A stretch of 64,000 bases of DNA from Escherichia coli (GCF_003334305.1 NZ_QOWS01000003.1), one strand, 5' to 3'. Positions 23,597 to 26,700 are shown, counted from the first letter of the stretch. A program made the numbers and translations. Notes: a model not told the origin generated them from the letters alone.

Positions 23597-25825
23597 ATGT
23601 ACACACAGACCCTGTATGAGTTAAGTCAGGAGGCTGAACGCCTGTTACAGCTTTCTCGCCAACAGTTGCAGTTACTGGAAAAAATGCCTCTCTCTGTACC
23701 CGGAGACGACGCGCCACAACTGGCTTTACCCTGGAGTCAGCCTAATATCGCCGAACGTCACGCGATGCTGAATAATGAGTTGCGTAAAATTTCCCGACTG
23801 GAAATGGTGCTGGCAATTGTCGGTACCATGAAAGCAGGGAAATCAACCACCATTAATGCCATTGTTGGTACGGAGGTTCTGCCTAATCGTAATCGCCCAA
23901 TGACTGCGCTGCCGACGCTTATTCGCCATACGCCCGGGCAAAAGGAACCGGTACTGCATTTTTCACATGTCGCGCCAATCGATTGTTTAATTCAACAATT
24001 ACAACAGCGCCTGCGTGATTGCGATATTAAGCATCTGACCGATGTGCTGGAAATAGATAAAGATATGCGTGCGCTTATGCAGCGGATCGAAAATGGCGTC
24101 GCTTTCGAAAAATATTATCTGGGTGCCCAGCCTATTTTTCATTGTCTGAAAAGTTTGAATGATTTAGTGCGACTGGCGAAGGCGCTGGACGTCGATTTTC
24201 CTTTTTCTGCTTACGCCGCCATTGAGCATATTCCCGTGATTGAAGTGGAGTTTGTCCATCTGGCGGGGCTGGAGAGTTATCCCGGTCAGTTGACGTTACT
24301 GGATACCCCCGGGCCAAATGAAGCCGGGCAACCGCATCTGCAAAAAATGCTTAACCAGCAGCTGGCACGCGCCTCGGCGGTACTGGCGGTGCTGGATTAT
24401 ACGCAACTGAAATCGATCTCCGATGAAGAGGTCCGTGAGGCGATTTTGGCGGTGGGGCAATCGGTGCCGCTGTATGTGCTGGTCAATAAGTTCGATCAAC
24501 AGGATCGTAACAGTGACGACGCCGACCAGGTGCGGGCACTGATTTCCGGGACGCTGATGAAAGGCTGTATTACGCCACAGCAGATATTTCCGGTGTCGTC
24601 GATGTGGGGCTACCTGGCGAATCGAGCGCGCCATGAGTTAGCCAACAACGGTAAGTTACCAGCGCCAGAGCAACAACGCTGGGTGGAAGATTTTGCCCAT
24701 GCTGCGCTCGGCAGGCGCTGGCGTCATGACGATCTGGCGGACCTCGAACATATTCGTCATGCTGCCGATCAGTTGTGGGAAGATTCGCTGTTCGCCCAGC
24801 CAATTCAGGCGTTGCTTCATGCCGCTTACGCTAACGCCTCGTTGTATGCTCTGCGATCTGCTGCGCATAAACTGTTGAATTACGCGCAGCAGGCGCGGGG
24901 ATACCTGGATTTTCGTGCGCACGGGTTAAACGTCGCTTGTGAACAATTGCGGCAAAATATCCATCAGGTCGAAGAAAGTTTGCAGCTATTGCAACTCAAT
25001 CAGGCGCAGGTGAGCGGCGAGGTTAAACATGAAATCGAGCTGGCCCTGACCTCCGCCAACCACTTTCTGCGTCAACAGCAAGATGCGCTGAATGCGCAGT
25101 TAGCCGCCTTGTTTCAGGATGATTCGGAGCCGTTAAGCGAGATTCGTACCTGCTGTGAGACACTGTTACAGACGGCGCAGAACACCATCAGTCGCGACTT
25201 TACGCTGCGTTTTGCCGAGCTTGAATCCACCCTTTGCCGGGTGTTAACCGATGTTATTCGGCCCATTGAGCAACAAGTCAAAATGGAATTGAGCGAGTCA
25301 GGGTTTCGTCCTGGGTTTCATTTTCCTGTTTTTCACGGCGTAGTTCCCCACTTCAACACTCGCCAGCTGTTCAGTGAAGTCATTTCGCGCCAGGATGCAA
25401 CGGACGAGCAGAGCACGCGTTTAGGCGTTGTGCGTGAGACTTTTTCGCGCTGGTTGAATCAGCCCGACTGGGGACGGGGAAATGAGAAATCCCCGACAGA
25501 AACGGTTGATTACAGTGTGTTGCAACGAGCTTTAAGCGCAGAAGTCGATCTTTATTGCCAACAAATGGCTAAAGTTCTGGCAGAGCAGGTCGATGAATCT
25601 GTTACGGCAGGCATGAATACTTTTTTCGCTGAGTTCGCTTCATGTTTGACGGAATTACAGACGCGTTTACGCGAAAGTCTGGCTCTGCGTCAACAAAATG
25701 AATCGGTGGTCAGGCTGATGCAGCAGCAATTGCAGCAGACTGTGATGACTCACGGCTGGATTTACACCGACGCCCAGCTGTTACGCGATGATATTCAAAC
25801 ACTTTTCACGGCAGAACGATATTGA
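23597..25825 (+). CDS. crfC: dynamin-like GTPase (clamp-binding sister replication fork colocalization protein)
   Basis: 742-aa ORF; G1 motif GTMKAGKST and DTPG G3 motif; AAGGAAG RBS 8 nt upstream. Confidence 0.9.
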   Translation: MYTQTLYELSQEAERLLQLSRQQLQLLEKMPLSVPGDDAPQLALPWSQPNIAERHAMLNNELRKISRLEMVLAIVGTMKAGKSTTINAIVGTEVLPNRNRPMTALPTLIRHTPGQKEPVLHFSHVAPIDCLIQQLQQRLRDCDIKHLTDVLEIDKDMRALMQRIENGVAFEKYYLGAQPIFHCLKSLNDLVRLAKALDVDFPFSAYAAIEHIPVIEVEFVHLAGLESYPGQLTLLDTPGPNEAGQPHLQKMLNQQLARASAVLAVLDYTQLKSISDEEVREAILAVGQSVPLYVLVNKFDQQDRNSDDADQVRALISGTLMKGCITPQQIFPVSSMWGYLANRARHELANNGKLPAPEQQRWVEDFAHAALGRRWRHDDLADLEHIRHAADQLWEDSLFAQPIQALLHAAYANASLYALRSAAHKLLNYAQQARGYLDFRAHGLNVACEQLRQNIHQVEESLQLLQLNQAQVSGEVKHEIELALTSANHFLRQQQDALNAQLAALFQDDSEPLSEIRTCCETLLQTAQNTISRDFTLRFAELESTLCRVLTDVIRPIEQQVKMELSESGFRPGFHFPVFHGVVPHFNTRQLFSEVISRQDATDEQSTRLGVVRETFSRWLNQPDWGRGNEKSPTETVDYSVLQRALSAEVDLYCQQMAKVLAEQVDESVTAGMNTFFAEFASCLTELQTRLRESLALRQQNESVVRLMQQQLQQTVMTHGWIYTDAQLLRDDIQTLFTAERY

Positions 25826-26700
25826 CCAAGACGTTACTTGACGGCCCCGGTCGCGTGCTGGAGTCGGTTTATCCCCGCTTTTTAGTGGATCTGGCGCAGG
25901 GCGATGATGCCCGCCTTCCACAAGCCCATCAGCAGCAGTTTCGTGAACGACTGATGCAGGAACTTCTTGCGCGCGTGCAGCTTCAGACATGGACGAACGG
26001 CGGCATGTTAAATGCGCCGCTTAGCCTGCGACTGACAATGGTGGAAAAACTGGCGTCGATGCTGGATCCCGGTCATCTGGCGCTGACGCAGATCGCGCAG
26101 CATCTGGCGCTGCTGCAAAAAATGGATCACCGCCAGCACTCTGCTTTCCCGGAGCTCCCCCAGCAAATTGCCGCCTTGTATGAGTGGTTTTCAGCCCGTT
26201 GCCGCTGGAAGGAAAAGGCGTTAACGCAACGAGGCCTACTGGTGCAGGCAGGTGATCAGAGCGAGCAAATTTTTACCCGCTGGCGTGCTGGGGCGTATAA
26301 CGCCTGGTCGTTGCCTGGGCGCTGTTTTATCGTTCTCGAAGAGTTGCGTTGGGGGGCATTTGGCGATGCCTGTCGTCTGGGAAGCCCGCAAGCGGTGGCG
26401 TTGTTGCTGGGTGATTTGCGCGTGAAAGCGACACAACATCTGGCAGAGAGTATCAATGCGGCCCCGACCACGCGTCACTATTACCATCAGTGGTTTGCCT
26501 CTTCGACCGTTCCGACGGGCGGGGATCATGCTGATTTTTTAAGTTGGCTGGGAAAGTGGACCACGGCAGATAAACAACCCGTTTGCTGGTCAGTGACCCA
26601 ACGCTGGCAAACTGTCGCGCTGGGGATGCCACGACTCTGTTCAGCGCAGCGTCTGGCGGGGGCAATGGTCGAGGAAATCTTCTCTGTAAATTTGGCGTAA
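25822..26700 (+). CDS. yjcZ: CrfC-associated protein, function poorly defined
   Basis: 292-aa ORF starting at a TTG that overlaps the crfC stop (TTGA). Confidence 0.82.
   Translation: MTKTLLDGPGRVLESVYPRFLVDLAQGDDARLPQAHQQQFRERLMQELLARVQLQTWTNGGMLNAPLSLRLTMVEKLASMLDPGHLALTQIAQHLALLQKMDHRQHSAFPELPQQIAALYEWFSARCRWKEKALTQRGLLVQAGDQSEQIFTRWRAGAYNAWSLPGRCFIVLEELRWGAFGDACRLGSPQAVALLLGDLRVKATQHLAESINAAPTTRHYYHQWFASSTVPTGGDHADFLSWLGKWTTADKQPVCWSVTQRWQTVALGMPRLCSAQRLAGAMVEEIFSVNLA

What the first reader, a model, noticed from the sequence alone, without database searches (positions are those of the whole stretch)
23597..26700. crfC-yjcZ dynamin-like pair, translationally coupled
The 742-aa dynamin-like GTPase is followed by yjcZ starting at a TTG that overlaps the crfC stop (TTGA). 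Bacterial dynamin-like proteins commonly act with a partner; the tight coupling suggests stoichiometric co-expression. Known but under-studied.
Basis: partly seen in the sequence, partly recalled or inferred. Interest (0 to 1): 0.25.

Follow-up and report, generated by a model that had tools for sequence, protein, structure and literature searches.

The report
Known GTPase and partner gene pair
This is the already characterised E. coli crfC-yjcZ (rdcA-rdcB) operon, a dynamin-like GTPase and its small helical partner whose genes overlap by four bases; the partner also has its own flagellar promoter inside the first gene, so the two are not simply made one-for-one.

Summary
crfC (23597-25825, 742 aa) ends in TGA, and yjcZ (25822-26700, 292 aa) starts at a TTG that shares three bases with that stop (TTGA). 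RefSeq annotates exactly this.

- Partnership is already published. YjdA/YjcZ were renamed RdcA/RdcB; they bind each other in a two-hybrid assay and both are needed to activate the diguanylate cyclase DgcE (Pfiffer 2019).
- YjcZ is not a dynamin. It has no G motifs, and its confident all-helical model matches nothing outside its own family. This is therefore not a DLP-DLP pair.
- The start/stop overlap is conserved. 75 of 80 orthologous loci have a 4-nt overlap. Other genera use ATGA, so the TTG is an Escherichia-specific change. SD pairing is at background level. This fits termination-reinitiation coupling.
- Stoichiometric co-expression is undermined. A published sigma-28 promoter lies inside crfC (25570-25597) and drives yjcZ separately; yjcZ rose 22.8-fold against 4-fold for crfC in a motile strain. 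I find this promoter conserved at synonymous sites across most genera.

By-product: outside Enterobacteriaceae, YjcZ homologs sit in dynamin/YjcZ/patatin three-gene modules. A paralogous copy is present in about 48% of E. coli genomes.

Verdict: real, ordinary, already known.

The parts
23582..23588 (+). Shine-Dalgarno sequence of crfC (AAGGAAG), 8 nt before the ATG
   Evidence: Read from the sequence. Duplex energy with the anti-SD is -6.1 kcal/mol, against a background mean of -2.35 over all ATGs in the window.
23597..25825 (+). crfC (yjdA, rdcA): 742-aa dynamin-like GTPase, TGA stop included
   Evidence: ORF. RefSeq annotation. NCBIfam NF007368 equivalog, 1594 bits. Pfam Dynamin_N 72-277. 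AF2 model pLDDT 80 with top PDB matches IniA, BDLP, SynDLP, mitofusins, Cj-DLP1/2 and LeoA.
23801..24646 (+). G domain of CrfC (about residues 69-350), with G1 GTMKAGKS 76-83, G2 T103, G3 DTPG 236-239 and G4 NKFD 297-300
   Evidence: Motif search. Secondary structure of the model. These residues are invariant across 50 homologs. K82 and T103 were mutated in PMC6510439.
25570..25597 (+). Intragenic sigma-28 (FliA) promoter inside crfC codons 658-667: TAAAGTTC-N11-GTCGATGA, 13 of 16 matches to the consensus TAAAGTTT-N11-GCCGATAA. It drives yjcZ.
   Evidence: Exact match to the motif published by Fitzgerald 2014. FliA-dependent lacZ fusion. At least 12 of 16 matches at the same position in 64 of 81 sequences, and synonymous sites R658, A660 and V665 rank 11, 25 and 24 of 231 for lowest entropy.
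25604..25821 (+). Inferred 218-nt leader of the sigma-28 transcript. The TSS is estimated at 7-9 nt after the -10 element and has not been measured. The leader is the 3' end of the crfC coding sequence.
   Evidence: Inference from the usual FliA promoter geometry. Folding is not more stable than shuffled controls (z = -0.32), and the stretch just upstream of the TTG is mostly unpaired in the centroid structure.
25822..25825 (+). TTGA junction: yjcZ start TTG (25822-25824) overlapping the crfC stop TGA (25823-25825)
   Evidence: Sequence. Annotation. 75 of 80 orthologous loci have a 4-nt overlap, with ATG in every non-Escherichia genus. SD-like pairing is -2.8 kcal/mol, at background level.
25822..26700 (+). 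yjcZ (rdcB): 292-aa all-helical partner protein, stop included
   Evidence: ORF. Pfam PF13990, E = 4e-144, residues 21-287. N-terminus conserved from residue 1. AF2 model pLDDT 91.4, pTM 0.91. No fold relatives outside the family.
25954..25956 (+). ATG at codon 45: the 'downstream ATG' alternative start, rejected
   Evidence: Some gene callers use it (248-aa cluster P0012). However, residues 1-44 are conserved (G8, R11, L13, E14, F20, V22, L24, Q37, R41, R43 and L44 invariant). They evolve with third-position bias. They also form confident helices in the model.

Best explanation
The locus is the E. coli rdcA-rdcB (crfC/yjdA-yjcZ) operon. CrfC is a soluble BDLP/mitofusin-type dynamin-like GTPase. 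YjcZ is a 292-aa helical protein with a family-specific fold that binds CrfC. Together they activate the diguanylate cyclase DgcE, with CrfC docking on its MASE1 domain; this has been shown experimentally by others.

YjcZ is made by two routes that converge on the same TTG start.

Route 1 (inferred). On the full-length crfC-yjcZ mRNA, ribosomes terminating at the crfC TGA re-initiate at the overlapping TTG. This gives a basal output that tracks CrfC synthesis. The supporting geometry is a stop within 5 nt of the start in 80 of 80 orthologs, with no better than background SD pairing.

Route 2. The promoter is shown in the literature; the translation step is inferred. A sigma-28 promoter embedded in crfC codons 658-667 produces a yjcZ-only mRNA with a leader of about 218 nt when the flagellar regulon is on. 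The TTG is then reached by de novo initiation in an unstructured, A/U-rich context.

The consequence is that the YjcZ:CrfC ratio is regulated rather than fixed. YjcZ is supplied in excess in motile or post-exponential cells, which fits a co-activator that sets how much CrfC is competent to switch on DgcE.
For: Identity:
- 100% match to the E. coli chromosome, with RefSeq crfC/rdcB limits equal to the ORFs.
- CrfC: NCBIfam equivalog, Dynamin_N, G1-G4 motifs, and whole-chain structural matches to IniA, BDLP, SynDLP, mitofusins and Cj-DLP1/2.

Partnership and function: RdcA binds RdcB tightly. RdcB neither dimerises nor binds DgcE. rdcA, rdcB and dgcE knockouts phenocopy each other (PMC6510439).

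Start site:
- No alternative start upstream.
- ATG at the homologous position in 77 of 80 loci.
- N-terminal conservation and codon periodicity that begins at the start codon.

Coupling geometry:
- 75 of 80 loci have a 4-nt overlap; the other 5 are within 5 nt.
- SD-like energy is -1.5 to -2.8 kcal/mol in most loci, against -6.1 for crfC and -5.9 for proP, with a background mean of -2.35.
- In a non-motile strain crfC and yjcZ mRNA levels are equal (2.5 and 2.4), as expected for one transcript.

Internal promoter:
- Motif at 25570-25597, FliA ChIP-seq peak, and yjcZ 52 versus 1 in a fliA deletion.
- FliA-dependent lacZ fusion.
- yjcZ rose 22.8-fold against 4-fold for crfC. About 70% of the crfC rise is what the last 222 nt alone would add.
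- Conserved in 64 of 81 sequences, with low synonymous-site entropy.

Translation of the sigma-28 transcript:
- YjcZ falls with the motility genes at both mRNA and protein level at 42 C.
- No stable structure occludes the start.
Against: - Coupling itself has never been measured. The conserved ATGA is partly forced, because the ATG must stay as a start and the TGA as a stop, so the conservation is weaker evidence than it looks.
- If the sigma-28 transcript is translated well without upstream ribosomes, coupling may be dispensable on the long transcript too.
- No start-site profiling or N-terminal peptide for YjcZ was found.
- The TSS of the internal promoter is estimated, not read from data.
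- The two RNA-seq datasets disagree on the crfC:yjcZ ratio. Fitzgerald's table gives yjdA 111 to 11 and yjcZ 52 to 1, so crfC also appears FliA-dependent and more abundant there.
- The biochemical role of YjcZ (GAP, exchange factor or adaptor) is unknown.
Confidence: 0.65

Rival explanations
1. The overlap is genome compaction only. YjcZ is initiated de novo on every transcript, most of it comes from the sigma-28 mRNA, and translation of crfC has no effect on yjcZ.
For: - The sigma-28 transcript has no crfC-frame ribosomes arriving from upstream, yet YjcZ protein follows the motility regulon.
- No inhibitory hairpin has to be melted by an upstream ribosome (z = -0.79 and -0.32).
- The ATGA tetranucleotide is constrained by the start and stop functions alone.
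Against: - SD pairing is at background level in most of the 80 loci. Escherichia additionally tolerates a TTG start, which is easier to understand if ribosomes are delivered by termination.
- When the stop moved in 5 lineages it stayed within 5 nt of the start.
- In non-motile cells the only yjcZ mRNA is the long transcript, with equal crfC and yjcZ levels, and rdcB is still functional in K-12 biofilm assays.
Confidence: 0.25
2. One reading: yjcZ is expressed only through tight translational coupling to crfC, which gives fixed one-to-one stoichiometry.
For: - TTGA overlap, weak SD and a non-ATG start.
- The proteins form a complex.
- mRNA levels are equal in a non-motile strain.
Against: - An independent FliA promoter inside crfC is shown by ChIP-seq, RNA-seq and a lacZ fusion, and it is conserved across genera.
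- yjcZ rose 22.8-fold against 4-fold for crfC.
- yjcZ, but not crfC, is listed among genes that fall with motility at both mRNA and protein level.
Confidence: 0.07
3. On the sigma-28 transcript a short ORF starting at CrfC Met673 (ATG 25613-25615, about 9 nt from the estimated TSS) is translated to the crfC stop. This would make a 70-aa C-terminal CrfC fragment and deliver ribosomes to the TTG, so coupling would operate on both transcripts.
For: - M673 is in frame, lies just downstream of the estimated TSS, and is conserved in 93% of orthologs.
- Several lineages that lack the promoter have Leu at this position.
- It would explain how a TTG with no SD gets translated.
Against: - The leader would be about 9 nt, with only a GGCAGG motif 1 nt from the ATG, which is poor geometry for SD-led or leaderless initiation.
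- The ATG is base-paired in the predicted fold.
- Met/Leu exchange is conservative within a helix.
- The promoter-Met correlation rests on few independent lineages, and 7 promoter-less loci keep the Met.
- The TSS has not been measured.
Confidence: 0.05
4. yjcZ really starts at the downstream ATG (codon 45) and encodes a 248-aa protein.
For: - Some automatic gene calls use it (cluster P0012, 577 members).
- ATG is a better start codon than TTG.
Against: - Residues 1-44 are conserved, with 11 invariant positions, and evolve as coding sequence from codon 2.
- 77 of 80 orthologs have ATG at position 1.
- The Pfam domain begins at residue 21.
- Residues 9-51 form confident helices packed into the model.
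Confidence: 0.02

Closest known systems
RdcA/RdcB (YjdA/YjcZ, CrfC) of E. coli K-12: GTPase system that activates the diguanylate cyclase DgcE (Pfiffer et al. 2019, PMC6510439). CrfC is also described as a clamp-binding nucleoid partition factor (PMC6374313).
   Same: It is the same locus. Gene limits and proteins match the RefSeq crfC/rdcB annotation. Operon organisation, the RdcA-RdcB interaction and GTPase dependence are all published.
   Different: Nothing differs in the sequence. The papers call it an operon and do not discuss the TTGA overlap, the TTG start or the consequences of the internal promoter for stoichiometry.
Heterotypic bacterial dynamin-like pairs encoded side by side: Campylobacter Cj-DLP1/DLP2, Streptomyces DynA/DynB, ETEC LeoA/LeoBC, and the fused B. 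subtilis DynA.
   Same: A DLP is encoded next to a partner it binds, with tightly packed genes. CrfC's model aligns along its whole length with BDLP, IniA, Cj-DLP1/2 and LeoA.
   Different: The partner is not a DLP. YjcZ has no G motifs, hits only PF13990, and has an orphan helical fold. CrfC is soluble and signals to a cyclase rather than remodelling membrane. Liu, Noel and Low name CrfC as the exception to DLP pairing.
[quoted passage not shown] (bioRxiv 10.1101/188474).
   Same: A FliA promoter sits in the 3' coding part of the upstream gene and drives the downstream gene. It is conserved and constrains codons.
   Different: That paper names only the flhC promoter as broadly conserved. Here the crfC-internal promoter is conserved in 64 of 81 sequences within the genera that have the locus. 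This case also has a start/stop overlap, so transcriptional independence and translational coupling coexist.
[quoted passage not shown]
   Same: They are homologous. The DLP is 33% identical to CrfC over its full length, and the YjcZ-like protein is about 30% identical. The gene order is the same, with a 4-nt overlap and a non-ATG (GTG) start at the first junction.
   Different: There is a third gene, patatin, overlapping by 4 nt. The operon sits in mobile CP4-44-like islands beside antirestriction, RadC and CbtA/CbeA genes. No FliA promoter is present (best match 10 of 16). It is found in only 2615 of 5426 genomes. A defence role has been proposed but is untested, and there is no PADLOC model for it.
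Termination-reinitiation coupling at overlapping stop/start codons (ATGA or TGATG junctions, as in trpB-trpA and many ribosomal-protein operons). This comparison rests on established knowledge and was not tested here.
   Same: A four-base overlap, a weak or absent SD, and a stop always within a few nucleotides of the start.
   Different: The start codon is TTG, whereas ATGA is the usual form and the ancestral one here. Dependence on upstream translation has not been shown.

Membership tests
Dynamin-like protein (BDLP/mitofusin type): CrfC | G domain with G1 P-loop, G2 Thr, G3 DxxG and G4 (N/T)KxD | tested here: met
   GTMKAGKS 76-83, T103, DTPG 236-239 and NKFD 297-300. All are invariant in 50 homologs. 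Pfam Dynamin_N, E = 7e-18.
Dynamin-like protein (BDLP/mitofusin type): CrfC | Long helical neck/trunk (stalk) following the G domain, with overall fold similarity to solved DLPs | tested here: met
   AF2 model (pLDDT 80, pTM 0.71) with helices 414-443, 448-505, 513-567, 639-698 and 702-741. The top 50 Foldseek PDB hits listed are all dynamin-superfamily proteins: IniA 1.6e-12, BDLP 2.2e-12, SynDLP, mitofusins, Cj-DLP1/2 and LeoA, with alignments of 700-840 columns. Global TM is only 0.2-0.3, as expected for hinge differences.
Dynamin-like protein (BDLP/mitofusin type): CrfC | GTP hydrolysis and nucleotide-dependent self-assembly | not testable with these tools
   Literature only. T103D abolishes function and reduces self-interaction (PMC6510439).
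Dynamin-like protein (BDLP/mitofusin type): CrfC | Membrane-binding paddle or tip | tested here: inconclusive
   The only candidate is the low-confidence segment 583-636. Pfiffer et al. describe the protein as soluble.
Heterotypic DLP-DLP pair | Both adjacent genes encode dynamin-like GTPases | tested here: not met
   YjcZ has no P-loop and no (N/T)KxD motif. Pfam hits PF13990 only. There are no NCBIfam or PADLOC hits. Its model has no DLP match.
YjcZ/RdcB family (Pfam PF13990) | Full-length match to the family profile | tested here: met
   E = 4e-144, model positions 1-272 of 272. Foldseek hits in AFDB50 are family members only.
YjcZ/RdcB family (Pfam PF13990) | Encoded immediately downstream of a CrfC-like DLP | tested here: met
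   80 of 80 enterobacterial loci have a CrfC homolog (53-92% identity) directly upstream. The same holds in 8 of 9 distant members where the upstream region could be read.
Translationally coupled gene pair (termination-reinitiation) | Stop of the upstream gene overlapping or within a few nt of the downstream start | tested here: met
   TTGA in the window. 75 of 80 orthologs overlap by 4 nt, and all 80 are within 5 nt.
Translationally coupled gene pair (termination-reinitiation) | Weak independent ribosome-binding site at the downstream start | tested here: met
   -2.8 kcal/mol against -6.1 for crfC and -5.9 for proP, with a background mean of -2.35. The start codon is TTG.
Translationally coupled gene pair (termination-reinitiation) | Downstream translation depends on translation of the upstream gene | not testable with these tools
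   No experiment was found. Supplements for ribosome profiling, INRI-seq and N-terminomics hold no entry for the gene.
Translationally coupled gene pair (termination-reinitiation) | The downstream gene has no transcript of its own (needed for fixed stoichiometry) | tested here: not met
   A sigma-28 promoter lies at 25570-25597 inside crfC. The two mRNAs are induced differently.
Sigma-28 (FliA) promoter | Match to TAAAGTTT-N11-GCCGATAA plus in-vivo FliA binding and FliA-dependent activity | tested here: met
   13 of 16 matches with an 11-nt spacer. ChIP-seq, RNA-seq and lacZ evidence come from the literature. Synonymous-site conservation was shown here.

The most novel reading that the evidence does not exclude
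The core crfC-yjcZ pair is a domesticated, patatin-less branch of a widespread three-gene module: dynamin-like GTPase, YjcZ-like protein and patatin phospholipase, with all junctions overlapping. In that module the YjcZ-like protein would act as an adaptor linking the nucleotide state of the GTPase to an effector enzyme. In Enterobacteriaceae the in-cis phospholipase would have been lost, the output redirected to DgcE, and the adaptor placed under flagellar control by a sigma-28 promoter written into the GTPase coding sequence. That promoter would be a second conserved 'duon', and Escherichia appears to have strengthened it through amino-acid changes while weakening the start codon from ATG to TTG.
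Probability: 0.35. Interest if true: 0.5.

Novelty: already known. Interest (0 to 1): 0.22.

Why it matters
For the finding as stated, little changes. The genes, their partnership and their role in c-di-GMP signalling are published, and the overlap is in the standard annotation.

Three points are worth carrying forward.

1. The locus is a clean natural case in which a translational-coupling geometry and an internal promoter coexist. The partner:GTPase ratio is therefore a regulated variable tied to the flagellar regulon. That bears on the open question of what RdcB does to RdcA.

2. The intragenic sigma-28 promoter is conserved across most genera that carry the locus. This adds a second example to the single 'duon' reported for FliA.

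3. YjcZ-like proteins are otherwise found between a dynamin-like GTPase and a patatin phospholipase, including in about half of E. coli genomes. This suggests the family's general job is to connect a DLP to an effector enzyme. It also gives the uncharacterised island-borne triad, a proposed defence operon, a characterised relative to reason from.

Tried and rejected
- Downstream ATG45 start: rejected on conservation, codon periodicity and the structure model.
- Upstream alternative start: impossible, because an in-frame stop lies 33 nt upstream with no start codon in between.
- Inhibitory mRNA hairpin over the yjcZ start, the classic coupling mechanism: not supported. Folding of 25762-25881 and 25604-25881 is no better than shuffles (z = -0.79 and -0.32).
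- YjcZ as a second dynamin, GAP-like or other known fold:
  - Foldseek against AFDB50 returned only family members.
  - A profile search against PDB sequences gave only coiled-coil noise.
- Defence-system membership:
  - CrfC gives only weak LeoBC/LeoA hits (E = 4e-6 and 1.5e-5).
  - YjcZ gives none.
  - Among the triad proteins, only the phospholipase and one DLP (L083) hit weakly.
- Direct evidence for the start codon or synthesis rates:
  - Li 2014 and Schmidt 2016 are not held.
  - The acid-stress Ribo-seq, TRAINSPOTTER and INRI-seq supplements hold no entry for the gene.
- Anticorrelation between SD strength and promoter presence:
  - Some promoter-less lineages (Atlantibacter, Franconibacter, K. 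cowanii) have stronger SDs (-5.6 to -6.1).
  - Others (Trabulsiella, Superficieibacter) do not.
  - There are too few independent events, so I dropped it.
- AF2 model of the CrfC-YjcZ complex: not attempted, because the tool returns no inter-chain error or contacts, so an interface could not be judged.
- NtrC control of yjcZ-proP: the ChIP peak was not confirmed by EMSA in the source paper.

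
Full report
**What is there**

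The window is E. coli chromosome. The 3.7-kb stretch around the finding is 100% identical to strain M8, and 5418 of 5426 complete E. coli genomes hold a match to it. The local gene order is phnD-phnC-yjdN-yjdM on the minus strand, then crfC, yjcZ (now rdcB), proP, pmrR and pmrB.

The ORF listing gives a 742-aa ATG ORF at 23597-25825 and a 292-aa TTG ORF at 25822-26700. The sequence reads GAA CGA TAT TGA in the crfC frame and TTG ACC AAG in the yjcZ frame, which is a four-base TTGA overlap. RefSeq uses exactly these limits.

**Is the TTG the real start?**

- In the yjcZ frame a stop lies 33 nt upstream with no start codon in between. The next candidates are GTG12, GTG22 and ATG45.
- I fetched 80 orthologous loci from about 20 enterobacterial genera. 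Every one has a CrfC homolog (53-92% identity) directly upstream.
- At the position homologous to the TTG, 77 loci have ATG and 3 have TTG, and those 3 are all Escherichia.
- The junction is ATGA in 72 loci, TTGA in 3, TAA-nn-ATG in 4 and TGATG in 1.
- The YjcZ N-terminus is conserved from residue 1, with G8, R11, L13, E14, F20 and V22 invariant.
- Codon-position entropy over codons 2-31 is 0.48/0.50/1.27. Immediately upstream of the start the periodicity flips to the crfC frame.
- Within E. coli the TTG is retained in O157:H7, ST131 and a third lineage. In all three the only difference in the 61-nt junction window is a synonymous change at +17.

The start is therefore at 25822. The TTG is an Escherichia-specific A-to-T change within an older ATGA junction, and the downstream-ATG alternative is rejected.

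**Does the junction look coupled?**

SD-like pairing upstream of the start is -2.8 kcal/mol in the window and -1.5 to -2.8 in most orthologs. That compares with -6.1 for crfC, -5.9 for proP and a mean of -2.35 over all ATGs in the window. The RBS is thus no better than background, the start codon is non-ATG, and the stop never lies more than 5 nt from the start. This is the geometry expected for termination-reinitiation.

Two cautions apply. First, ATGA is partly self-preserving, because it is both a start and a stop. Second, no hairpin sequesters the start (z = -0.79 and -0.32 against shuffles), so nothing forces dependence on an upstream ribosome. Coupling is plausible but unproven.

**The complication: an internal promoter**

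Fitzgerald et al. (PMC4183435) mapped a FliA ChIP-seq site inside yjdA with the motif TAAAGTTCTGGCAGAGCAGGTCGATGAA. They concluded that it drives yjcZ, whose RNA-seq value was 52 in wild type and 1 in a fliA deletion. The motif is at 25570-25597, 253 nt before the crfC stop. A lacZ fusion confirmed FliA-dependent activity.

In a motility-activated strain, yjcZ mRNA rose from 2.4 to 51.6 (22.8-fold) while crfC rose from 2.5 to 9.6 (4-fold). If only the 222 nt of crfC downstream of the estimated TSS rose with yjcZ, crfC would read 7.4. Most of its apparent induction is therefore the internal transcript. The equal levels in the non-motile strain fit a single long transcript.

YjcZ, but not CrfC, is listed among genes that fall with the motility regulon at both mRNA and protein level at 42 C. 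This implies that the sigma-28 transcript is translated.

One inconsistency remains. Fitzgerald's table also shows yjdA falling from 111 to 11, which I cannot reconcile with the other dataset.

**Conservation of the promoter (new here)**

At the homologous position, 64 of 81 sequences match at least 12 of the 16 consensus positions.

The element overlaps codons R658-K-A-L ... Q-V-D-V667. The synonymous choices CGT, GCT and GTC rank 11th, 25th and 24th of 231 degenerate sites for lowest entropy, and AAA and GAT are used in 96% and 95% of sequences. The spacer codons vary freely.

The promoter is degraded in Trabulsiella, Superficieibacter, Atlantibacter, Franconibacter and Kosakonia cowanii.

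In Escherichia, amino-acid replacements (A660V and V667E relative to the other genera) move both hexamers toward consensus.

Fitzgerald et al. 2017 named only the flhC promoter as broadly conserved. Salmonella and Klebsiella are absent from the loci and protein hits I recovered. If their comparison relied on such genera, that could explain the omission.

**What the proteins are**

CrfC matches the NCBIfam CrfC equivalog and Pfam Dynamin_N. It has intact G1-G4 motifs. It gives an AF2 model (pLDDT 80) with a G domain followed by 55-60-residue helices. The best PDB matches to that model are all dynamin-superfamily members, aligned along the whole chain.

YjcZ matches only PF13990 and has no G motifs. 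It gives a confident all-helical model (pLDDT 91.4, pTM 0.91) with no relative in the PDB or in AFDB50 outside its own family. 'Dynamin-like pair' is therefore wrong in the DLP-DLP sense, and Liu, Noel and Low explicitly list CrfC as the exception to DLP pairing.

Function is published. YjdA/YjcZ were renamed RdcA/RdcB. RdcA binds RdcB and the MASE1 domain of DgcE, while RdcB neither dimerises nor binds DgcE. All three knockouts phenocopy each other, and the GTPase-dead T103D variant is inactive (PMC6510439).

**Best model**

There are two routes to the same TTG.

- A basal route runs on the long mRNA, probably through termination-reinitiation.
- A regulated route runs from the sigma-28 transcript by de novo initiation in an open, A/U-rich context.

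The YjcZ:CrfC ratio is therefore regulated, not fixed. I put 0.65 on this model, 0.25 on 'no coupling at all', and small weights on strict coupling, a Met673 mini-ORF and the ATG45 start.

**By-product: the wider family**

A profile search found 262 clusters at 50% identity.

All ten sampled members outside the enterobacterial clade have a patatin homolog immediately downstream, usually overlapping by 4 nt. Eight of the nine whose upstream region could be read have a CrfC-like DLP there. One member is a DUF3944-YjcZ fusion followed by patatin, with no DLP.

None of the 80 enterobacterial loci, nor the window, contains a patatin. In an NJ tree all the two-gene forms fall in a single 17-tip clade.

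One triad lineage is in E. coli itself. It is present in 2615 of 5426 complete genomes. It lies in CP4-44-like islands beside YeeP-like GTPase, antirestriction, RadC and CbtA/CbeA genes. Its junctions are GTGA and ATGA. This triad was noted in strain MP1 in 2026 as a putative defence operon (PMC12922286). PADLOC has no model for it.

The inference that the core pair is a patatin-less derivative rests on taxonomic breadth, because the tree is unrooted.

**Verdict**

The feature is real and correctly located, but it is ordinary and already known. The interpretation needs two corrections: the partner is not a dynamin, and expression is not purely coupled or stoichiometric.

Noticed in passing
L083 614-4972; L087 487-4942; L101 1079-5652; L082, L086, L089, L097, L099, L100: Outside Enterobacteriaceae, YjcZ-family genes sit in a three-gene module: a dynamin-like GTPase (about 800 aa), a YjcZ-like protein (about 300 aa) and a patatin-like phospholipase (about 350 aa), mostly with 4-nt overlaps at both junctions. 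Patatin is present in 10 of 10 sampled members and the DLP in 8 of 9 that could be read. No PADLOC model covers the module.
   Followed up: partly
L091 7340-11705; L092 7348-11713: A paralogous dynamin / RdcB-like / patatin operon is present in 2615 of 5426 complete E. coli genomes. It lies in CP4-44-like islands next to a YeeP-like GTPase, antirestriction, RadC and CbtA/CbeA genes. Its junctions are GTGA and ATGA, and it has no FliA promoter. It was noted in strain MP1 by PMC12922286.
   Followed up: partly
L085 4001-6630: A 532-aa fusion of DUF3944 with a YjcZ domain is followed, with a 4-nt overlap, by a patatin gene. No dynamin-like gene lies within 4 kb. This suggests the YjcZ-patatin link can exist without the GTPase.
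   Followed up: no
window 25570-25597: The sigma-28 promoter inside crfC is conserved at synonymous sites in most genera that carry the locus. In Escherichia, amino-acid changes (A660V, V667E) bring it closer to consensus, while the yjcZ start codon weakened from ATG to TTG. This may be compensation.
   Followed up: yes
window 23597-25825, roughly codons 500-520: Escherichia CrfC is 742 aa, but orthologs in other genera are 770-789 aa. The alignment shows a block of roughly 40 residues missing from the Escherichia stalk region.
   Followed up: no
proteins P0020-P0022: Some E. coli genomes encode 438-442-aa proteins that carry both Dynamin_N and YjcZ domains. They look like an internal deletion fusing the N-terminal part of CrfC to the C-terminal 70% of YjcZ. 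P0001 (475 aa) looks like a frameshift fusion.
   Followed up: no
window about 25725-25805 (MG1655 4327301-4327381): An NtrC ChIP-seq 'peak' reported for yjcZ-proP in nitrogen-starved cells lies just downstream of the sigma-28 promoter. The same study found unconfirmed peaks at flgMN and fliC. EMSA was negative, so these may reflect heavy FliA-driven transcription rather than NtrC binding.
   Followed up: no
Fitzgerald 2014 Table 2 versus PMC11237407 supplementary file 3: The two RNA-seq datasets disagree on the crfC:yjcZ ratio in motile cells (111:52 versus 9.6:51.6) and on how strongly crfC depends on FliA.
   Followed up: partly
window 23339-23362: A 9-bp inverted repeat with T/A runs on both sides lies just downstream of yjdM in the AT-rich yjdM-crfC intergenic region and looks like a bidirectional terminator. 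The sigma-70 promoter of crfC in this region is still undefined, and the FliA promoters once predicted here were rejected by ChIP-seq.
   Followed up: no
L068 and L077 (record titles): A contig labelled Chryseobacterium sp. 18061 carries a Pluralibacter-like crfC-yjcZ locus. A contig labelled Citrobacter freundii M-21 carries an Atlantibacter-like one. Both are probably mislabelled or contaminated assemblies.
   Followed up: no
Five plasmid records carry the crfC-yjcZ region. A few chromosomes lack most of it; strain AQ15 keeps only a 160-nt rdcB remnant next to proP.
   Followed up: no
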